In this document: piece after piece, positions 4,522 to 58,836 of the stretch
Layout of the letters: the number at the start of each line of letters is the position of its first letter
Numbering within the stretch: position 1 is the first letter of the stretch
Sequence record: PZ445431.1
Strand: one strand, 5' to 3'
From: a phage
Length of the DNA stretch: 64,000 nucleotides
Notes under the pieces: generated by a model
Database searches by the model: none
What the model was told of the DNA's origin: nothing
What the model saw: only the letters and a program-made list of their open reading frames with translations
Program-made: the position numbers and the translations under genes

Positions 4522-6855
4522 ATGAGCCATCGTATCGAAAAAGTAATTAAACGTGACGGTACTGTTCAGGACTTTGCTCCTGAAAAACTCAATGATTGGG
4601 CTGCATGGGCATGTAAAGATACTGACGTAAGTTGGTCTGCCGTAGTTATGGCTGCCCTGAAAAATCTACCCAAAGGTGTTGTAGACTCCGATACACTCCA
4701 AGATGTGTTAATTAAAGCCGCTGAAGGTCTTATCAAAGACAACCCAGCATATGATACTGTAGCAAAGGAATTACGTCTTGCGCAGATGCGTAAACGCCTA
4801 TATGATTCTTTTGAACCTCCTTCTCTGCGTTTCTTCCACGATCATATGGTTCGTGTCGGCGCTTGGGAAGACATGAGTGCATGGATTAGCGATGATCAGT
4901 TTGAAGCTCTGAACCAAGTTATTGATCATGATCGTGATCGTTTATTCACCAGTGGTGGACTGAAACAGTTCTTCGACAAGTATTCCCGTCGTAATATTGC
5001 AACTGGTGAAATTTATGAAACCCCGCAGTTTGCCTACATGGGTATGGCAATGGCGATGTTATCTCAACCTAACTGGACAATTCTCGATGCAATCGACCTC
5101 TACAACGCAATGTCACTCCATAAAATCAACGTGCCGACTCCACCTCTCGTGGGTCTTAGGAGCAGCGACCGCGGTTTTGCTTCTTGTTGTCTTGTTGATA
5201 GTACTGATACCCTCGATTCAATCGACACAGCCGAGCACATCGTCTTCAAAATGGTCGCAGCCAGAGCGGGAATCGGGTATCATCTTGAAAGCCGATCAAT
5301 TGCTGATCCGGTGCGAAATGGGGCATTCCCGCATTCCGGAAAACTGCCATATTATCGACACATTGACCGATCAGTAAAAGCTAACACTCAGCAAACCCGT
5401 GGTGGTTCTGCTACTGTGTCTTACCCATACTTCGATCCTGAAATCATTCAGTTGATGCAGGTTAAGCAGCAACGTGCTACAGACGAGAATAAAATCGATA
5501 AGATGGATTACTCTCTGAGCTTTAACAACCTTCTGTTAAAACGTTACCTGAAAAATGAAGATATTACGCTAATGTCCTACTTCTACGCACCAGAAGTTCA
5601 TGAAGCGTTTTATGGCGAAGATGAGGCTAAGTTTGAAGAAATCTACGTGGCAGCGGAGAAACGTGTGGCATCTCTTACAAAGATCGACCACGAAGGAAAA
5701 ACAATTCCAGCAGCTCCTAGAATCTCTGCAAAAGAAATCCTAGATACTTGGTTACGTATCCGTATGGAAACAGGGCGTATGTATGCTCATCACATTGGTG
5801 AATCTAACCGTCATGGTAACTTCCTTGACCCGATTCGTATGACCAACCTTTGTGTTGAAATTACTCAGCCAACCCGTCCATTCCATCACATTACGGAGCT
5901 GTATAAGACCCAAGATCAGTTAGACGATATGCGTCCAGAGGACATTGGTGAAGTATCTCTGTGTAACTTAGGTGGTGTTGTACTAGGTCGCATGGAATCT
6001 CTGGCTGAATGGGAGAAAACTTGCTACATCCTTCTGAAATTCGTTGATACAATCATCGAGATTCAGGATTATCCATTCCCAACCATGGAATACACGGCTA
6101 AGAAACGTCGTAACGTTGGTATTGGTCTGATGAACGCAGCAGGTGCAATGGCAGCAGAAGGTTTGGCTTACGAAGGTGTTGAAGCACGTAACTGGATTCA
6201 CCGTGAAGCTGAAAAGCTGTCCTACTTCCTGCACAAAGCCTCTGTACGTCTGGCCAAAGAACAGGGTGCATGTGACTGGTTTAATCGTACTAAGCCTTCA
6301 CAAGGAACTCTGGTAATCGACACGTATAAGAAAACTGTTGATGAACTGGTAACTGTAGGTCTAGAAATGGATTGGGAATCTCTACGTGCAGATATCCTGA
6401 AATATGGTATGCGTAACTCCGTTCTGACTGCTCAGATGCCGGGTGAAAGTTCCTCTGTACTGCTAGGTGTTACTAACTCTATTGAACCGCCTCGTAAGAT
6501 TGTATCTATCAAGGGTAGTGCAGTGAATAAAGTAATTGCAATTGCTCCAGGTGCAACTGATTGGGATACATTAATGAGCTATAAACTGGCTTATGATGTA
6601 GATCGTATCGAGTGGATCAAATGGGTAGCAACCATGCAGAAATTCTTCAGTCAGTCTATAAGTACGAATATGTACTATGACTACACCAAGTTTGAGAATG
6701 AAATTATTCCTGGCCCAGTAGTAGTTCGTGACTTCATGACTGCTGTTAAGTACGGTTGGAAAACTTTCTACTATGCAAACTTTAACACCGAGAATGGTGG
6801 TGGTGCAGGGGAAGAAACTGCTGCTGGATGCGCATCAGGTGGTTGTAACCTGTAA
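4522..6855 (+). CDS. nrdA: ribonucleoside-diphosphate reductase large subunit (class Ia)
   Basis: ATP-cone N-terminus (VIKRDGTVQDF), about 778 aa from ATG 4522 with AAGGAAAG RBS; track start 4462 lies inside the promoter. Confidence 0.9.
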   Translation: MSHRIEKVIKRDGTVQDFAPEKLNDWAAWACKDTDVSWSAVVMAALKNLPKGVVDSDTLQDVLIKAAEGLIKDNPAYDTVAKELRLAQMRKRLYDSFEPPSLRFFHDHMVRVGAWEDMSAWISDDQFEALNQVIDHDRDRLFTSGGLKQFFDKYSRRNIATGEIYETPQFAYMGMAMAMLSQPNWTILDAIDLYNAMSLHKINVPTPPLVGLRSSDRGFASCCLVDSTDTLDSIDTAEHIVFKMVAARAGIGYHLESRSIADPVRNGAFPHSGKLPYYRHIDRSVKANTQQTRGGSATVSYPYFDPEIIQLMQVKQQRATDENKIDKMDYSLSFNNLLLKRYLKNEDITLMSYFYAPEVHEAFYGEDEAKFEEIYVAAEKRVASLTKIDHEGKTIPAAPRISAKEILDTWLRIRMETGRMYAHHIGESNRHGNFLDPIRMTNLCVEITQPTRPFHHITELYKTQDQLDDMRPEDIGEVSLCNLGGVVLGRMESLAEWEKTCYILLKFVDTIIEIQDYPFPTMEYTAKKRRNVGIGLMNAAGAMAAEGLAYEGVEARNWIHREAEKLSYFLHKASVRLAKEQGACDWFNRTKPSQGTLVIDTYKKTVDELVTVGLEMDWESLRADILKYGMRNSVLTAQMPGESSSVLLGVTNSIEPPRKIVSIKGSAVNKVIAIAPGATDWDTLMSYKLAYDVDRIEWIKWVATMQKFFSQSISTNMYYDYTKFENEIIPGPVVVRDFMTAVKYGWKTFYYANFNTENGGGAGEETAAGCASGGCNL

Positions 6856-50755: not shown

Positions 50756-50786
50756 CAAAGCGAAGTGAGAAACACTGTTATTTAAG

Positions 50787-50856
50787 TTATCCACAGGTTT
50801 ATTAACAGCACGATCTGACTTGACAAAATCCTAGTGATTTTGAGGCGTTATCCACA
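50787..50856 (+). promoter_or_regulatory. two perfect DnaA boxes (TTATCCACA) in direct orientation
   Basis: TTATCCACA at 50787-50795 and 50848-50856. Confidence 0.8.
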
Positions 50857-50894
50857 GACTTATCAACAGGTTATTCTACTGTATATTTATACAG
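50848..50894. repeat. left arm of about 47 bp inverted repeat (partner 54593-54639)
   Basis: TTATCCACAGACTTATCAACAGGTTATTCTACTGTATATTTATACAG versus reverse complement of 54593-54639, about 90% identical. Confidence 0.8.
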
Positions 50895-51579: not shown

Positions 51580-51920
51580 TGCGCCACCTTTCGAAACGCT
51601 GTTTCGATACTTTCAGCGGTTGATTGAATATACGCGCCTTTCATAATTAGACGCTCCGTACATACTTTGCGGAAAATGAAAATGAATTCATTTTCATTTT
51701 CCGCTATTAACGCTTCCCCCATAACCTGAACGTCACAAGACCCAAAAGTTAAAAATTGAAACGCTAGTTCACGGGCGACAACGGCAGAAATTTTATAATG
51801 TGCTTTGCCCTCATAGATATTAACCACGCCTTTATAAACAGGGGAAAGCTGATTTAAATAGTTTGCTAATAATGCCGGACGGCAATTAGTTACAAAGCGA
51901 TTGCCCTCATAAATAACCAT
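51576..51920 (-). CDS. hypothetical protein (114 aa)
   Basis: ORF in leftward gene string. Confidence 0.55.
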   Translation of the reverse strand: MVIYEGNRFVTNCRPALLANYLNQLSPVYKGVVNIYEGKAHYKISAVVARELAFQFLTFGSCDVQVMGEALIAENENEFIFIFRKVCTERLIMKGAYIQSTAESIETAFRKVAQ

Positions 51921-53347: not shown

Positions 53348-54343
53348 TTATTCACTTTCGGTGTTAGTGGTAAAGGTAGAAATGTCAATACCTTTTACCA
53401 TTTCGTCGATCATTTCAGCAATATTGAAACTCTGTACCATTTCCAACATTGCCGCTTCCATTGCCGCGCCTGCTACCGCTTTCGCTTTCTGATTAGTCGG
53501 GGCGTACTGGTCAACTGCTACGCTTAACAGGTTAGCGATCACTATACGACCAATCGGCGTATCGATATAACCTTTAATCATAAACGGCGCTTTTTTCGCC
53601 GCTACTTTCGTGATTTGAGTTAATGCAATTTTACCCGCTTCCAGTTTTGCAGCATTTACAACAGCGGATTTATTAGCAGCAACGATAGAAGATACTTTAG
53701 TCATGATATTTCCTTTATTTTCAGTAGTTTGCGCATTTGCGCTTGAAGTTTGAGAGTTTACAGCCTGTTTTGCTACGTTGTCAACTGGTTTTAGTGTAAA
53801 TCCAGCGTTTGCAACGTTTGATTCATTCCCATACTCTAAATAATCGTTAGGGATCAACATGTTACCGCTAGCGCGTTCAAAACACAATACGCCAGTTGTT
53901 TCGATTGCGTCACTATCCGCACGTTTAATGGCGCTTGTCAATTCGCCCCAAATGCTAGACAGTAAATCTTCTACATCTCTGGAATTAATACCATTTACGC
54001 GAGTAGCGAAAACCATTTCTTTTTCTTGTACATTGTAACCACGGGCAATATAGCTTTTTTCGTCGTGACCTACAATGATAAAATCAATATCGCTTCCCCG
54101 CTGATTTCGTATGATGTGATAGTCACGGTTGTAAAGCACTAGAACGCGGCTAGGGTCTAGTAATAGCGTGAAATCATCGACTGAATAATGAGTATCATTA
54201 TTATCTAAAATATCATCGTGAATCTTTTCAACCATTGCCACCGTATGTTGTAGGCTTGCTGGACTTGATCCGTCTAGCAGGTTGCGCAAAATACCCTTAA
54301 TAATAGTGGCGTTTGCTGGTACTGCAATTCTTACAGTAGACAT
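53348..54343 (-). CDS. hypothetical protein (331 aa), first gene of leftward pre-early operon
   Basis: Longest ORF of the block; GGAGAC RBS; Ala/Lys-rich C-terminal half. Confidence 0.6.
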   Translation of the reverse strand: MSTVRIAVPANATIIKGILRNLLDGSSPASLQHTVAMVEKIHDDILDNNDTHYSVDDFTLLLDPSRVLVLYNRDYHIIRNQRGSDIDFIIVGHDEKSYIARGYNVQEKEMVFATRVNGINSRDVEDLLSSIWGELTSAIKRADSDAIETTGVLCFERASGNMLIPNDYLEYGNESNVANAGFTLKPVDNVAKQAVNSQTSSANAQTTENKGNIMTKVSSIVAANKSAVVNAAKLEAGKIALTQITKVAAKKAPFMIKGYIDTPIGRIVIANLLSVAVDQYAPTNQKAKAVAGAAMEAAMLEMVQSFNIAEMIDEMVKGIDISTFTTNTESE

Positions 54344-54592
54344 TTCTTTGTCTCCCTCGTTAATCGGTGAGTGAATGATATAGATAATTGTTCGCTATGG
54401 GCAAGAAAAAAGAAAAGGTTTTTTATTCCTTGCCTAACGCTTGTTTTTATGATACCCGCGTGTTTTCTATTTCTAGCTCTCTGTAAGCGTACACAAGGCT
54501 TTATTATAATAAGGGTAGCAGTGAGAAAACGCCGTGTAGCGTGTTCTAGACCTCTTAAATTTGATTGCGGTTGTTACTGCTACCATTCTACC

Positions 54593-54639
54593 CTGTATAT
54601 TTATACAGTAGGATAACCTGTATATAAGTCTGTGGATAA
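54593..54639. repeat. right arm of about 47 bp inverted repeat (partner 50848-50894), containing a DnaA box
   Basis: CTGTATATTTATACAGTAGGATAACCTGTATATAAGTCTGTGGATAA. Confidence 0.8.
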
Positions 54640-54688
54640 GTCGCCAAATCGTCGCCTATTACGTCAAGTTATTTTGTGCTGTGGATAA
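54631..54688 (-). promoter_or_regulatory. two perfect DnaA boxes (TGTGGATAA on + strand = TTATCCACA on - strand)
   Basis: TGTGGATAA at 54631-54639 and 54680-54688; partial boxes at about 54611 and 54965. Confidence 0.8.
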
Positions 54689-55018
54689 CTTTGGGGATAA
54701 GTTAAATGATAGTGGTTCTCACTTAGCCCGATAGTTTCTCATAGTTATTATTTCTCTTTAATTTATAAGTATATTATATAATATGAAATAGTTAGTTGGC
54801 TAATAGGTTTTTAGAGTATTAATAGTCTGCTAATAATAACGCATGTTACAATCCACCAGCGTGATTATCATCCTAGCGACTATTAGCGTGCTAATGACCT
54901 GATACACGTCCAGACTTATTTGTCAATGAAAAATAATAGCAGAAAATACTTTTTTGAAAAATCAAGTGGATAACTCATTAAATTTCATTTTTGCTTTTTG
55001 TATAAGTTATTAACAGGG

Positions 55019-55050
55019 TCTAAAACGCTCTGTAACGCATTCTAAGCGCC
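55019..55050. repeat. direct repeat copy 2 (TCTAAAACGCTCTGTAACGCATTCTAAGCGCC)
   Basis: Matches 50927-50957 in the same orientation. Confidence 0.8.
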
Positions 55051-55351
55051 TCAAAGGAAAAGATAGGCAATCATAAGGAGTACACCGAGAAAACCTCACC
55101 ACTAGCGAAATAAGTTTTGTCAAGTACCCCAAAGCAGATATAAATGAAAAAATTACTTGCTAAAATGGTTGTTTTGATGTTATTCGCGCGCCCGTTTCAT
55201 TTAATTTTAGGCAGTCGCTGGACGTGGTGCGGTGGCGTTTGTCCTTACGTTTCTTTACAAAAATAAGGTTGCGCCCTTCTCGGTATTCTCCTATTATTTA
55301 TCACGTAGGGCGGCAATGACGAACTACACGGCGGAGAAGTTTACCACCGCG

Positions 55352-55388
55352 CTCTTTAAAAACTAGGGAACATCTTAAAGCCTATCGG
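55352..55388. repeat. left arm of 37 bp near-perfect inverted repeat
   Basis: CTCTTTAAAAACTAGGGAACATCTTAAAGCCTATCGG; reverse complement matches 55795-55831 at 36/37. Confidence 0.9.
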
Positions 55389-55421
55389 CGGTAAACTTAT
55401 ATAATATAAGGAATCGACGAT

Positions 55422-55580
55422 ATGACAACAATATTTAACGATCATCCAGCTACCCACGACACGATCGAAAAAATCGAACAATGGGTAAAGACTGCAAATG
55501 AATACTATGCTAATCATTCGGAAGCGGTAATAATCTGCAATGATGGGAATGGTTTATATGCTTTGGAGGATCTCAAATGA
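55422..55580 (+). CDS. hypothetical small protein (52 aa) inside the IR-flanked cassette
   Basis: ATG after TATATAATATAAGGAATCGACGAT; ATGA-coupled to the next ORF; not in track. Confidence 0.45.
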   Translation: MTTIFNDHPATHDTIEKIEQWVKTANEYYANHSEAVIICNDGNGLYALEDLK

Positions 55581-55786
55581 AACAAACGCTTTTGATCACT
55601 GGCAAGCCTATCAAGTCACTTGATAGCAGAACAAAAAATTTGTTGATAGTAGCGCAAAAATCGGTAAAATACCGATTCAAGCAGTACAAGAAAGGAAGGC
55701 AGCAAGGTCTGGAAATGGTGTGGCGTAATATAATGATTGATTTATATAACTCCCATCAAATCGAAAAAAGTTTAAAAAACGCTTGA
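55577..55786 (+). CDS. hypothetical basic protein (69 aa) inside the IR-flanked cassette
   Basis: ORF track; Lys/Arg-rich. Confidence 0.5.
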   Translation: MKQTLLITGKPIKSLDSRTKNLLIVAQKSVKYRFKQYKKGRQQGLEMVWRNIMIDLYNSHQIEKSLKNA

Positions 55787-55794
55787 TACGCTAG

Positions 55795-55831
55795 CCGATA
55801 GGTTTTAAGATGTTCCCTAGTTTTTAAAGAG
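55795..55831. repeat. right arm of 37 bp near-perfect inverted repeat
   Basis: CCGATAGGTTTTAAGATGTTCCCTAGTTTTTAAAGAG. Confidence 0.9.
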
Positions 55832-56017
55832 CGATAACTTGATAAAATTTGACGGTCGGCACTTACCATAATGTGCCCCGCCCCCTAACTGGGATATAGC
55901 GGCCCGCGTGGAGTTCTTTAAATTTATTATACTGGCGAGCGGATTATAATCTAATAGCGTTTCAACGTATCGAGGCGCTATTGTGGAATAATCCCCCAAT
56001 AAACCGGAGTATTAAAA

Positions 56018-56269
56018 ATGCAAAACGTTATTACCGCGCCGAAAGTAGGTCAATCTGTTTTCATTCCTTTTGTAACTAAAACGGATGAATTAACCGGAAA
56101 AGCCGAACGTATTAAAGGTGTGGCGCTTGATCCTTTCGATAAAATCGAAGCGGTATACGCGGAAACGGAACGGAGTAACAACGGCAAGCCAATTTATAAC
56201 GTTCGCGTTAAATCCGGCGACGTTGTAAAGATCATTCAGAAAGATGATAAATGGCAAGCTATTAGCTAA
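56018..56269 (+). CDS. hypothetical protein (83 aa)
   Basis: ORF with GGAG RBS. Confidence 0.55.
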   Translation: MQNVITAPKVGQSVFIPFVTKTDELTGKAERIKGVALDPFDKIEAVYAETERSNNGKPIYNVRVKSGDVVKIIQKDDKWQAIS

Positions 56270-56368
56270 TTAGTGCTAACTTTATATTCCCCTGAAATAT
56301 GGGGAATATATGGATTAACATTAGTTAATCATAATCCCTTAATTAATAATTGAATGGAGTATTAAATT

Positions 56369-56785
56369 ATGTCTAACGTTAAAACCGAAAAAGCCGCAAA
56401 ATTCGCATGGAATGAAGAAAACACTGAAAAAGCCGTTTCTATGTATTCTGAAATGGTCGCTAAAAGCGGAATTGAATTTGCTAACACTGACGGCTTAAAA
56501 GAAATCGCCGCCGCCGTTGGCGCGGCTTCTCCCGTGTCTGTTCGCTCAAAATTGACCAGCGCAAAAGCCTACCAGAAAAGCGATAAACCTCGCAAAGTTG
56601 GCGGTGGTAGCTCAATCCGTAAAGCTCACTATGTGCGCGTCATTGCTAAACATGCCATTGATAGCGGCATTGTAAAAGACGCCGACGATCTGGCAAGTCT
56701 GGAAAGCGCAAAATTGGAAACGCTGGACGCCGTAGCGCAATTGTTAGGCGTAGCGGAGGAAGTAAAACAGGCCGCAGGCGAATAA
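56369..56785 (+). CDS. hypothetical protein (138 aa)
   Basis: ORF with GGAG RBS. Confidence 0.55.
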   Translation: MSNVKTEKAAKFAWNEENTEKAVSMYSEMVAKSGIEFANTDGLKEIAAAVGAASPVSVRSKLTSAKAYQKSDKPRKVGGGSSIRKAHYVRVIAKHAIDSGIVKDADDLASLESAKLETLDAVAQLLGVAEEVKQAAGE

Positions 56786-57171: not shown

Positions 57172-58836
57172 ATGAATATTTCCGCAGAAAAACAGTCTCA
57201 GATCAATAAACTTGCCGCCGACTTTAATTTCTACGGTAAGCGTTTACGCGCTACCAAACTTGAAGTTTGCGACGATATTTCAAAAGCTGTATATGATACG
57301 CCGAAACATTCAACGGCAATTTGTGACTGGTTGGAAGCAAATAAGCCAGCGAAACCGAAGGCAGCGAAAGCTGTAAAAGCCATTAAAAACGATGATCGCC
57401 CCGAAGCGGCGGGGATCGTTTCTAGCACGGTTGAGCAATGGGAAGTTAAATCCGGTCGCCGTTTTATTCTAACGTCGATTCAAAATAATACTTTCCCGCA
57501 CAAAAACTTTTTGAAAGCGCTTGAGCAATACGCTAGTTATTATGGCGCTGAATTGCTTGTTAGCAAATTCATTTACAACAAAAACGGATTTCAGAATGGG
57601 GAAGGCGGCGAAAAAATCAAATATGATCCCGCATTTGATAAATATATTTGTGAGAAAAACGTATTTTTAAATAATCGCCGCTTTGCTTTCATGGCTGAAA
57701 TTAACGTATTACCAACGGCAGATTATCCGCTTTCAGGATTCGCAGAAACTGCCACCGCTTTAAATATTGAAGGTCTGGCAATTGGTCACGCAAAAATTAC
57801 CGCTGAAAGTGTGCCAGCGTTAAAAGGTGAAGTAGTGCGCCGTATGTACTCCACCGGAACGGCTACGCTTAAAAACTACATTCAGCAGAAAGCAGGTCAA
57901 AAAGCTGAGGCGCTGCATAATTACGGCGCTTTGCTGGTAGAATTTGACGACGACGGCGAATTTTTTGTTCGCCAGCTTGAGACAATGGATGAAAGCGGGA
58001 TGTTTTATGATTTGAATATTTGCGCTATACCAACCGGATGTTTCAAAACATCTGATCATGTTTTAGGTTTGCAATATGGCGATATTCACGCCGAAAAATT
58101 AGATGATGATTGCGCTGTTGCATCATGGGTGGGCGAAAATAGCTTGCTTGATATTCTTAAACCAAAATATCAGTTTATCCATGATGTGCATGATTTTACA
58201 TCGCGTAACCATCATAATCGCGCCTCTGGTGTATTCCTAGCTAAACAGTACGCCGCCGGACGTGATAAAGTTATTGATGATCTTATCGATACTGGACGTG
58301 TATTAGAATCAATGGAGCGCGATTTTTCTCAAACAATCATCGTGGAATCCAATCATGATTTGGCGTTATCCCGTTGGCTTGACGATCGCAACGCTAATAT
58401 TAAAGACGATCCCGCAAACGCCGAACTGTATCACAGCCTAAACGCCGCTATTTATGCAGCTATTGCAAAACAAGATGATACCTTTAACGTATTGGATTAC
58501 GCGCTTAGAAACGTTGCAGGTTGCGAATTTAACGCTATTTTTCTGACTACTGACCAATCTTTCAAGATTGCAGGAATTGAATGCGGCGTACACGGTCACA
58601 ATGGCATTAACGGCAGTCGGGGCAATCCTAAGCAGTTTAAGAAACTTGGACGCCTCAACACTGGCCATACTCACACGGCGAGCATTTACGGTGGCGTGTA
58701 TACCGCTGGCGTTGCTGGTAGTCTCGATATGGGTTACAACGTGGGCGCGTCAAGCTGGACGCAAACGCATTTAATTACCTATGCAAACGGGCAACGTACT
58801 TTGATTGATTTCAAAAACGGTAAATTCTTTGCATAG
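57172..58836 (+). CDS. A1: A1-like pre-early protein (metallophosphoesterase-type)
   Basis: 554 aa with GDIHAE, ESNHD, GVHGHNG, NTGHTHT phosphoesterase-like motifs; size and position next to a dmp-like gene match T5 A1. Confidence 0.6.
   Translation: MNISAEKQSQINKLAADFNFYGKRLRATKLEVCDDISKAVYDTPKHSTAICDWLEANKPAKPKAAKAVKAIKNDDRPEAAGIVSSTVEQWEVKSGRRFILTSIQNNTFPHKNFLKALEQYASYYGAELLVSKFIYNKNGFQNGEGGEKIKYDPAFDKYICEKNVFLNNRRFAFMAEINVLPTADYPLSGFAETATALNIEGLAIGHAKITAESVPALKGEVVRRMYSTGTATLKNYIQQKAGQKAEALHNYGALLVEFDDDGEFFVRQLETMDESGMFYDLNICAIPTGCFKTSDHVLGLQYGDIHAEKLDDDCAVASWVGENSLLDILKPKYQFIHDVHDFTSRNHHNRASGVFLAKQYAAGRDKVIDDLIDTGRVLESMERDFSQTIIVESNHDLALSRWLDDRNANIKDDPANAELYHSLNAAIYAAIAKQDDTFNVLDYALRNVAGCEFNAIFLTTDQSFKIAGIECGVHGHNGINGSRGNPKQFKKLGRLNTGHTHTASIYGGVYTAGVAGSLDMGYNVGASSWTQTHLITYANGQRTLIDFKNGKFFA

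What the first reader, a model, noticed from the sequence alone, without database searches (positions are those of the whole stretch)
55352..55831. 406 bp two-ORF cassette flanked by a 37 bp near-perfect inverted repeat
CTCTTTAAAAACTAGGGAACATCTTAAAGCCTATCGG (55352-55388) and its reverse complement (55795-55831, 36/37 identical) flank a segment holding a promoter-like TATAAT region and two coupled small ORFs (52 aa and 69 aa). A perfect IR of this length enclosing a tiny transcription unit is unusual. Possibilities are an invertible switch, a miniature mobile element, or a long-range RNA stem that sequesters the transcript.
Basis: seen in the sequence. Interest (0 to 1): 0.7.

Follow-up and report, generated by a model that had tools for sequence, protein, structure and literature searches.

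The report
T5 pre-early inverted repeat IRA/IRA′
The 40-bp inverted repeat is real, but it is the local version of an already named and functionally unexplained repeat (IRA/IRA′) of phage T5's first-injected DNA; one arm is the core of a strong early promoter, and the way the arms co-evolve suggests they pair in the messenger RNA rather than flip or move DNA.

Summary
The window is the T5-like Escherichia phage TrudiRoth. The repeat is confirmed and is longer than reported: arms 55350-55389 and 55794-55833, 39/40 complementary, 404 nt apart. They bracket two coupled small ORFs (52 aa; 69 aa, the T5.008/DUF7416 homologue).

It is the homologue of "inverted repeat A/A′", annotated in the T5 GenBank record inside the pre-early (first-step-transfer) region. 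The right arm coincides with the core of the pre-early promoter P-D/E20. A second promoter, P-H22, lies inside the loop.

The repeat occurs in every Demerecviridae relative examined (Tequintavirus, Epseptimavirus, Slocum, Sugarland-like, My1). Arm sequences differ between lineages but are compensated. The enclosed cargo varies (217-406 nt).

- The interior has the same orientation in 54/54 loci, and there is no extra copy, empty site or recombinase. It is therefore not an invertible switch or a miniature mobile element.
- Arm-versus-arm differences are mostly G·U on the sense strand (12 site classes against 3 A·C; background transitions are symmetric).
- The helix dominates the predicted folds.

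Best model: a long-range duplex in read-through pre-early mRNA, expected to be an RNase III substrate. DNA-level roles are not excluded. The feature is known; its function is unknown.

The parts
55350..55389 (+). Left arm of the inverted repeat (homologue of T5 'inverted repeat A′'). It ends 32 nt before the ATG of the first enclosed ORF. The outer motif GCTCTTTAAAAA is invariant in all seven phages aligned across genera.
55794..55833 (+). Right arm (homologue of T5 'inverted repeat A'). It starts 7 nt after the stop of the 69-aa ORF. It contains the spacer, the -10 element and the start region of promoter P-D/E20.
55783..55811 (+). P-D/E20 homologue: -35 TTGATA (55783-55788), 17-nt spacer, -10 TAAGAT (55806-55811). 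The predicted start is about 55818-55819. T5's 25-nt IRA core corresponds to promoter positions -29 to +1.
55408..55412 (+). Shine-Dalgarno AAGGA serving the first ORF in the loop. The motif ATAAGG is invariant across genera.
55422..55580 (+). 52-aa ORF (bas30_0191; phrog_21018, unknown function). Present in TrudiRoth, HMD-7, saus111K and Slocum. Absent in T5, S114 and most relatives.
55577..55786 (+). 69-aa ORF, the T5.008 homologue (bas30_0192; Pfam DUF7416, phrog_4718). Predicted to be a two-helix hairpin. Translationally coupled to the 52-aa ORF by an ATGA overlap.
55643..55670 (+). P-H22 homologue (TTGATA-16-TAAAAT) inside the 69-aa ORF. In T5 this pre-early promoter was validated by primer extension (PMC7472727). 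Its transcripts would carry only the right arm.
55232..55366 (+). Annotated 44-aa ORF (bas30_0190) whose 3′ end overlaps the left arm. Its coding status is doubtful.
55834..56017 (+). Conserved, GC-rich, untranslated leader between the right arm and the T5.007 homologue. It is the 5′ UTR of P-D/E20 transcripts.
56018..56269 (+). T5.007 homologue (DUF7177). It is the first gene downstream of the repeat and is followed by A2 (56369-56785) and A1 (57172-58836).

Best explanation
This is TrudiRoth's copy of the T5 repeat IRA/IRA′. It lies at the head of the pre-early operon that leads into T5.007, A2, A1 and dmp.

The right arm is the core of the strong pre-early promoter P-D/E20. The left arm is an inverted copy of that core, without a -35 element. 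It lies just upstream of the ribosome-binding site of a small gene module: the 52-aa ORF plus T5.008, with P-H22 inside.

Proposed mechanism:
- Transcripts that start at promoters upstream of the left arm and read through P-D/E20 carry both arms.
- In those transcripts the arms pair into a 25-40 bp duplex that closes the 217-406 nt module as a loop.
- In E. coli a duplex of this length is expected to be cut by RNase III. That would detach the small-gene module from the downstream T5.007-A2-A1 message and leave the module with base-paired ends.
- Transcripts started at P-H22 or P-D/E20 lack the left arm and escape cleavage.

The repeat would therefore act as a promoter-dependent RNA processing or retroregulation device.

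Shown: the identity with IRA/IRA′, the overlap with P-D/E20, conservation with compensated changes, the sense-strand G·U bias, and the predicted folds. Inferred: co-transcription of both arms, formation of the duplex in vivo, RNase III cleavage, and its consequence.
For: Identity with the known T5 feature:
- The window is 100% identical to phage TrudiRoth.
- T5 record AY587007 annotates inverted repeat A at 4682-4706 and A′ at 4950-4974. Record AY692264 places P-D/E20 at 4664-4738 and P-H22 at 4810-4867.
- The T5 arms I found independently lie at 4683-4707 and 4951-4975 in NC_005859.
- The annotated 75-nt P-D/E20 sequence reads TTGACA-N17-TAAGAT, with the IRA core at -29 to +1.

Conservation and covariation:
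- There are 34 distinct arm pairs in 48 loci, plus 10 metagenomic loci.
- The repeat is also present in Slocum, Sugarland-like phages, oselot, STyj5-1, mar003J3 and My1.
- Compensated changes include GGGAAC versus GGGTAC in both arms, the series C-G, U·G, U-A at one position, CATTTT in both arms of DT57C, and an extra A mirrored in both arms of L025.
- In the core helix 99.4% of cells pair, 3 pairs change on both sides, and 0 of 500 shuffles reach the covariation score. Slid controls pair only 28-45%.

RNA on the sense strand:
- 310 of 312 cells pair on the + strand, against 294 of 312 on the - strand.
- Among arm-versus-arm differences, 12 site classes are G·U-type and 3 are A·C-type. The binomial P of 0.02 was computed at the earlier tally of 11:3.
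- Transitions in unpaired columns are symmetric, 168 against 180.
- A DNA-level control repeat of the same region (IRC/IRD type) shows 20 G·U-type, 14 A·C-type and 55 transversion differences. Fisher P = 0.0015 for G·U-type against the rest.

Folding:
- The long-range helix is in both the MFE and the centroid structure for TrudiRoth (z = -7.65), T5 (z = -8.0) and the Sugarland-like phage (z = -4.7).
- RNAalifold predicts the helix on its own from 15 full-length sequences.

Other:
- No terminator-like site lies between the divergent promoter region and the arms.
- The arms bracket the translated unit tightly in the three phages measured: 32-34 nt before the ATG and 7-12 nt after the stop (TrudiRoth, T5, DT57C).
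- That RNase III cleaves perfect duplexes of about 20 bp or more is established biochemistry, cited from my own knowledge.
Against: - No transcript data were available, and no paper in the searchable library links T5 pre-early RNA with RNase III.
- The upstream promoter that would place both arms in one RNA is annotated only as putative in T5 (T5P3). It is not clearly conserved in sequence in TrudiRoth.
- The G·U statistic rests on about 15 site classes that I classified by eye. They are not fully independent, and P is only about 0.02. My1 adds 2 G·U-type, 2 A·C-type and 2 transversion differences.
- Several changes are multi-nucleotide: TrudiRoth's perfect 40 bp against T5's 7 bp + 4x4 loop + 28 bp, and the mirrored insertion in L025. 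These look like DNA-level template switching or gene conversion, which produces 'compensation' without RNA selection.
- The inner half of the arms (CTTAAAGCCTATCGGC) is more conserved in sequence than pairing alone requires. This could reflect a protein site or promoter constraints.
- Other inverted repeats of this region (IRB/IRB′, IRC/IRD) cannot act in one RNA, so DNA-level roles for repeats clearly exist here.
Confidence: 0.45

Rival explanations
1. DNA-level twin site. Both arms are bound as double-stranded DNA by the same factor, which could be RNA polymerase/sigma70, the A2 DNA-binding protein or A1/A2, or a host protein. One site lies on P-D/E20 itself. Cooperative binding or looping then controls P-D/E20 and P-H22, for example in the A1-dependent shut-off of pre-early transcription.
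For: The right arm is a promoter core. The inner half of the arm is strongly conserved in sequence from T5 to Slocum, beyond what pairing requires. [quoted passage not shown] P-H22's -10 element also sits in a small palindrome, 55659-55677.
Against: A protein-site model predicts conservation of the sequence, not lineage-specific co-variation of both arms. It also predicts no excess of sense-strand G·U differences. The minus strand next to the left arm has no usable -35 element (ATAAGT at the 17-nt spacing), so the left arm is not a consensus promoter. The cargo protein T5.008 is a two-helix hairpin with no match to DNA-binding folds. DT57C keeps the repeat without T5.008.
Confidence: 0.25
2. 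Evolutionary by-product. An old inverted duplication of a promoter module is kept similar by template switching or gene conversion. It now mainly provides conserved flanks at which small pre-early genes are swapped between co-infecting phages, and has no dedicated function.
For: The cargo differs between lineages while the arms stay: T5.008 only, 243-261 nt; the 52-aa ORF plus T5.008, 398-404 nt; another 56-aa ORF in DT57C, 217 nt; Slocum 367 nt; Sugarland-like 406 nt; My1_014, 232 nt. Several changes perfect the repeat in one multi-base step, and the insertion in L025 is mirrored in both arms. Similarity to Sds2-type relatives breaks at 55817/55818, inside the right arm. GCTCTTTAA occurs as a direct copy after the right arm in the Sds2 type, Slocum, the Sugarland-like phage and My1, but inverted in the T5 type.
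Against: The repeat is retained in every Demerecviridae lineage examined, including ones whose T5.007 protein is only 60% identical. The arms stay 92-100% complementary, whereas the control repeat has decayed to about 75%. The sense-strand G·U bias is not expected from strand-symmetric DNA homogenisation.
Confidence: 0.17
3. Invertible promoter switch, of the fimS or hin type. Recombination between the arms would flip the segment that carries P-H22.
For: An inverted repeat encloses a promoter.
Against: The interior has the same orientation in 54 of 54 loci. All BLAST alignments are collinear. No recombinase is annotated in the surrounding 13 kb. An inverted state would put both ORFs in antisense.
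Confidence: 0.02
4. Miniature mobile element or mobile cassette bounded by terminal inverted repeats.
For: A perfect terminal-inverted-repeat-like pair encloses a small unit.
Against: There are only the two arms in the 64 kb window. The bases directly outside the arms are not a target-site duplication. The repeat is at one fixed homologous position in all relatives, and no empty site was found. A metagenome scan anchored on the internal ribosome-binding region found only T5-like loci plus three chance matches. One arm is a resident promoter.
Confidence: 0.02
5. Transcription terminator or attenuator formed by the long hairpin.
For: A very stable hairpin would form just as the polymerase leaves the right arm.
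Against: No U-tract follows the stem, and the scan calls no terminator-like site in 54300-56400. The essential genes A2 and A1 lie downstream in the same direction.
Confidence: 0.04

Closest known systems
Phage T5 'inverted repeat A / A′' in Repeat Region 1 of the left terminal repeat (GenBank AY587007; Davison, bioRxiv 10.1101/866236)
   Same: Homologous sequence, homologous position (flanking T5.008 and upstream of T5.007-A2-A1), and the same overlap of one arm with P-D/E20. [quoted passage not shown]
   Different: In T5 only a 25-bp core is annotated. The full helix there is 7 bp + a 4x4 internal loop + 28 bp. In TrudiRoth it is one uninterrupted 40-bp duplex that encloses an extra 52-aa ORF. 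In the one paper I could read on this (Davison's preprint) the region is called 'untranslated' and given no function. The 2005 genome paper and Davison's 2015 review were not available to me.
RNase III processing stems of rRNA operons and phage T7 early mRNA (my own knowledge, not tested here)
   Same: Long-range pairing of sequences that flank a functional unit, giving a duplex of 20 bp or more. The T5-type version has an internal loop, as T7 sites do.
   Different: Cleavage has never been shown here. The enclosed unit is a small protein-coding module. One strand of the duplex doubles as a promoter.
Lambda sib retroregulation of int (my own knowledge)
   Same: Only transcripts from one promoter (read-through) contain the complete RNase III hairpin. 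Transcripts with other end points escape.
   Different: sib is a local hairpin downstream of the gene. Here the two halves are 217-406 nt apart and bracket the genes. The outcome (decay or stabilisation) is unknown.
Invertible promoter switches (fimS, hin/gin)
   Same: Inverted repeats flank a segment that contains a promoter.
   Different: There is no recombinase and no orientation polymorphism.
Single-strand promoters of conjugative plasmid leading regions (Frpo/ssi) (my own knowledge)
   Same: An inverted repeat involving promoter sequence, in the DNA that enters the cell first and carries early takeover genes.
   Different: Those hairpins form in single-stranded DNA and rebuild both the -35 and the -10 element. 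T5 DNA enters double-stranded, and the left arm lacks the -35 complement.

Membership tests
T5 IRA/IRA′ (Repeat Region 1 of the FST region) | Arm sequence homologous to T5 IRA (GCCGATAGGCTTTAAGATGTACCCA) | tested here: met
   The core GGGAACATCTTAAAGCCTATCGGC in TrudiRoth aligns with GGGTACATCTTAAAGTCTATCGGC in T5.
T5 IRA/IRA′ (Repeat Region 1 of the FST region) | Position: the arms flank T5.008 upstream of T5.007-A2-A1 in the terminal-repeat (pre-early) region | tested here: met
   Gene order. The 69-aa ORF is DUF7416, the T5.008 family.
T5 IRA/IRA′ (Repeat Region 1 of the FST region) | One arm coincides with promoter P-D/E20, and P-H22 lies between the arms | tested here: met
   Annotation in AY692264 and AY587007. 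Both promoters map onto the window.
RNase III processing site | A duplex of about 20 bp or more formed within one transcript | tested here: inconclusive
   A 25-40 bp helix is predicted in the MFE, centroid and consensus folds. Co-transcription of both arms is inferred, not shown.
RNase III processing site | rnc-dependent staggered cleavage in both strands | not testable with these tools
   This needs RNA end mapping in wild-type and rnc hosts. No report was found.
Invertible DNA switch | Both orientations of the segment occur in populations or genomes | tested here: not met
   54 of 54 loci have one orientation.
Invertible DNA switch | A dedicated site-specific recombinase is encoded nearby | tested here: not met
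   None among the 28 features annotated around the locus.
MITE / IS-like element | Multiple copies, or presence/absence polymorphism with empty sites | tested here: not met
   Only the two arms occur in 64 kb. All relatives carry the repeat at the same site.
MITE / IS-like element | Target-site duplication flanking the terminal repeats | tested here: not met
   The bases directly outside the arms (...ACCACCG on the left, ATAACTTG... on the right) share no direct repeat.
Intrinsic terminator | GC-rich stem with a short loop followed by a U-tract | tested here: not met
   No terminator-like sites in 54300-56400. The loop is 404 nt.
Any Rfam RNA family | Match to a curated covariance model | tested here: not met
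   No match at E ≤ 1 in 54300-56400.

The most novel reading that the evidence does not exclude
A promoter-embedded RNA gate. The sequence of the strong pre-early promoter P-D/E20 would also serve, at the RNA level, as one strand of a long-range duplex. That duplex would mark only read-through transcripts for RNase III processing. It would excise or stabilise a swappable module of tiny host-takeover genes, and it would uncouple that module from the A2/A1 message. The device would be conserved across two subfamilies of Demerecviridae.
Probability: 0.3. Interest if true: 0.6.

Novelty: already known. Interest (0 to 1): 0.38.

Why it matters
The first-step-transfer DNA of T5-like phages carries the first genes expressed after infection. 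These genes handle host shut-off, escape from restriction, and entry of the remaining genome. How their expression is ordered and then switched off is still not understood.

[quoted passage not shown] The one paper I could read assigns it no function.

If the arms act as a sense-strand RNA duplex, three things follow. It would be the first post-transcriptional control element proposed for T5 pre-early genes. It would explain why an inverted copy of a promoter core is kept. It would give a simple experiment: compare an rnc host with wild type, and make left-arm mutants.

Practically, the repeat marks a conserved slot in which small pre-early genes are exchanged. If the repeat turns out to be only a recombination scar, the finding is ordinary.

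Tried and rejected
- **Literature.** Davison's 2015 review and the Bujard-lab promoter papers are not held. A search for the P-D/E20 sequence string and a search for the promoter names found nothing useful. No paper links T5 and RNase III in a relevant way. The main text of the CRISPRi-ART study reports fitness effects for A1 and A2 and does not mention T5.008.
- **Metagenome scan.** I anchored it on the ribosome-binding region inside the loop (TAAGGAATCGACGATATGA). It gave 13 loci: 10 T5-like with the same repeat, and 3 chance matches in unrelated contexts (L059, L064, L066). There was no cassette copy elsewhere.
- **Rfam.** No match.
The scan did not call it. The best -35 candidate is 19 nt away.
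- **Left arm as a leftward twin of P-D/E20.** Rejected, because no -35 element lies at a workable spacing.
- **Minus-strand promoter call at 55428-55401.** It depends on codons of the 52-aa ORF and is absent where that ORF is absent.
- **Cargo protein as the factor that binds the arms.** T5.008 models as a generic two-helix hairpin (pLDDT 77), and all Foldseek PDB hits have E > 1. DT57C keeps the repeat without T5.008.
- **Relationship of the 52-aa ORF to the 56-aa ORF of DT57C.** Not supported (BLASTP E = 0.04).
- **More distant carriers of a T5.007-like gene.** Klebsiella phage KP13-26 and the Vibrio phages have no comparable repeat.
- **Mapping T5's upstream promoter T5P3 onto TrudiRoth.** Inconclusive.

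Full report
**What is there.** The window is 100% identical to Escherichia phage TrudiRoth (Bas30, Epseptimavirus, Demerecviridae), a T5-like phage. The reported inverted repeat is real and slightly longer than described. The arms are 55350-55389 and 55794-55833, 40 nt each, 39/40 complementary, with 404 nt between them. No shuffle of the window produced a match to the arm. The single mismatch is a G·U pair on the + strand. Between the arms lie a Shine-Dalgarno sequence (55408-55412) and two coupled ORFs, of 52 aa (55422-55580) and 69 aa (55577-55786). Both are annotated in the public record. The 69-aa protein belongs to the T5.008 family (Pfam DUF7416, phrog_4718). The 52-aa protein is phrog_21018. 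Both are of unknown function. Downstream, on the same strand, come the T5.007 homologue, A2, a small membrane protein, A1 and dmp. This is the pre-early operon of the first-step-transfer (terminal-repeat) DNA.

**It is a known, named repeat.** T5 carries the same repeat at the same place. I found arms at 4975-4951 and 4707-4683 of NC_005859. GenBank AY587007 annotates exactly these as "inverted repeat A" (4682-4706) and "inverted repeat A′" (4950-4974). [quoted passage not shown] He assigns it no function and calls it untranslated (bioRxiv 10.1101/866236). I could not read Wang et al. 2005 or Davison 2015.

**One arm is a promoter.** AY692264 annotates promoter P-D/E20 at 4664-4738 and P-H22 at 4810-4867. 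The annotated P-D/E20 sequence is ...TTGACA-CCCTAGCCGATAGGCTT-TAAGAT-GTACCC-A..., so the 25-nt IRA core spans promoter positions -29 to +1. An alignment across genera shows TTGACA (or TTGATA), a 17-nt spacer and TAAGAT (or TAAAAT, TATTAT) conserved at the right arm in TrudiRoth, S114, T5, DT57C, HMD-7, a Sugarland-like Klebsiella phage and Serratia phage Slocum. In the window the elements are 55783-55788 and 55806-55811. P-H22 was validated in T5 by primer extension (PMC7472727). It maps to 55643-55670, inside the 69-aa ORF and therefore inside the loop. The minus strand beside the left arm has no usable -35 element, so the left arm is an inverted copy of the promoter core only.

**Conservation and co-variation.**
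- In 48 related loci there are 34 distinct arm pairs. Ten metagenomic loci add to them.
- The repeat is also present in Slocum, in Sugarland/IME260-like phages (TTGGGATTCTATAA·AAAGCGTTATCGGC), and in Pectobacterium phage My1 of another subfamily. In My1 a 38-nt repeat brackets the small gene My1_014, and TTGCAA-N18-TACTAT overlaps the right arm.
- Arm sequences differ between lineages but change together. Examples are GGGAAC versus GGGTAC in both arms, the series C-G, U·G, U-A at one position, CATTTT in both arms of DT57C, and an extra A mirrored in both arms of one phage.
- On the 24-bp core, 99.4% of cells pair and three pairs change on both sides. No shuffle reaches the covariation score, and slid controls pair only 28-45%.
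- The helix has three forms: 40 bp uninterrupted in TrudiRoth-type phages; 7 bp + a 4x4 internal loop + 28 bp in T5-type phages; and the 24-bp core only in Sds2/EPS7-type phages.

**The cargo varies, the frame does not.** Loop lengths are as follows:

| Loop length | Content |
|---|---|
| 243-261 nt | T5.008 alone |
| 398-404 nt | 52-aa ORF + T5.008 |
| 217 nt | DT57C: T5.008 lost, an unrelated 56-aa ORF present |
| 367 nt | Slocum |
| about 406 nt | Sugarland-like |
| 232 nt | My1 (My1_014) |

Slocum, HMD-7 and TrudiRoth share the two-gene form, so that form is probably old and T5 lost the 52-aa ORF. In the three phages measured the arms hug the translated unit, 32-34 nt before the ATG and 7-12 nt after the stop (TrudiRoth, T5, DT57C).

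**Not a switch, not a mobile element.** The interior has the same orientation relative to T5.007 in 54 of 54 loci. No recombinase is annotated nearby. There are no extra copies in the window, no target-site duplication, and no empty site in any relative. A metagenome scan anchored inside the loop found the module only in T5-like contexts. No terminator-like site is called, and no Rfam family matches.

**RNA or DNA?** Pairing-preserving co-variation can come from selection on a base-paired structure or from DNA-level homogenisation of the arms. The strand test favours RNA on the sense strand.
- 310 of 312 core cells pair on the + strand, against 294 of 312 on the - strand.
- Distinct arm-versus-arm differences fall into 12 G·U-type and 3 A·C-type classes. 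The binomial P of about 0.02 was computed at the earlier tally of 11:3.
- Transitions in unpaired columns of the same alignment are symmetric, 168 against 180.
- The other large inverted repeat of the region (IRC/IRD type; 50760-50894 and 54593-54727 in the window) is thought to act as DNA. Its arms differ by 20 G·U-type, 14 A·C-type and 55 transversion differences. This pattern is different (Fisher P = 0.0015).
- The long-range helix is in the MFE and centroid folds of TrudiRoth (z = -7.65), T5 (z = -8.0) and the Sugarland-like phage (z = -4.7). It is also predicted independently by RNAalifold.

Against a purely RNA explanation:
- Some changes are multi-base and look like template switching.
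- The inner arm half is more conserved than pairing needs.
- My1 shows no strand bias.
- The site classes are few and not independent.

**Mechanism proposed.** Transcripts from promoters upstream of the left arm would contain both arms. In T5 that promoter is T5P3, annotated as putative. In TrudiRoth its counterpart is unclear. No terminator intervenes. The resulting 25-40 bp duplex should be a substrate of host RNase III; this is established biochemistry that I cite from memory and did not test here. Cleavage would separate the small-gene module, with paired ends, from the T5.007-A2-A1 message. Transcripts started at P-H22 or P-D/E20 lack the left arm and would be untouched. I put this at about 0.45 overall. 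The identity with IRA/IRA′ is close to certain. The RNA duplex is about even odds. The RNase III step is less likely than that.

**Rivals.**
- A DNA-level twin site for a protein, 0.25. The cargo protein gives it no support: T5.008 models as a plain two-helix hairpin with no structural match.
- A by-product of an inverted promoter duplication that now serves as a recombination frame, 0.17.

**Verdict.** The feature is an already annotated element of T5-like phages, in a somewhat more perfect form. The switch and mobile-element readings are rejected. The RNA-stem reading is the best supported but unproven.

Noticed in passing
window 51669-51704: A perfect 36-bp palindrome, GCGGAAAATGAAAATGAATTCATTTTCATTTTCCGC, centred on an EcoRI site. 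It lies about 1.6 kb beyond the T5.011-like gene (53348-54343) on its downstream side. I did not check the annotation at this position.
   Followed up: no
window 50760-50894 and 54593-54727: A 135-nt inverted repeat, 76% identical, about 3.7 kb apart. It is the homologue of T5 IRD′-spacer-IRC′ / IRC-spacer-IRD and shows DnaA-box-like TTATCCACA motifs. I used it only as a DNA-level control.
   Followed up: partly
window 55834-56017: The roughly 185-nt untranslated leader between the right arm and the T5.007 start is GC-rich and highly conserved among TrudiRoth, S114, T5, DT57C and HMD-7. It contains a hairpin, GGCACTTACCATAATGTGCC (55858-55877). There is no Rfam match.
   Followed up: no
window 55659-55677: The -10 element of P-H22 (TAAAAT) sits in the centre of a small palindrome, AATCGGTA-AAA-TACCGATT. 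RNAalifold picks it up as a local hairpin. It is only partly conserved and lies in coding sequence.
   Followed up: no
window 55817/55818; L002, L007, L011, L050, L070: Similarity to Sds2/EPS7-type relatives breaks exactly at the predicted +1 of P-D/E20. In those phages, and in Slocum, the Sugarland-like phage and My1, the right arm is followed by a direct copy of GCTCTTTAA(C/A)AATTTGG, the motif that begins the left arm. In T5-type and TrudiRoth-type phages that motif is inverted.
   Followed up: partly
L010 (DT57C) 1584-1754: DT57C has lost T5.008 but keeps the repeat. Its 217-nt loop contains an unannotated 56-aa ORF behind the same ribosome-binding site. DT57C is also the only phage with two A·C mismatches in the core helix.
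   Followed up: partly
L070 (My1) 7046-7009 and 6776-6739: Pectobacterium phage My1 (Mccorquodalevirinae) has a 38-nt inverted repeat that brackets the single small gene My1_014, with a promoter-like TTGCAA-N18-TACTAT over the right arm. The design is the same, in another subfamily, and several genes away from its T5.007 homologue.
   Followed up: partly
window 54790-54880: The motif TGCTAAT recurs three times in the divergent promoter region upstream of the left arm, and it recurs in T5 around the putative promoter T5P3. The real rightward pre-early promoter of TrudiRoth was not pinned down.
   Followed up: no
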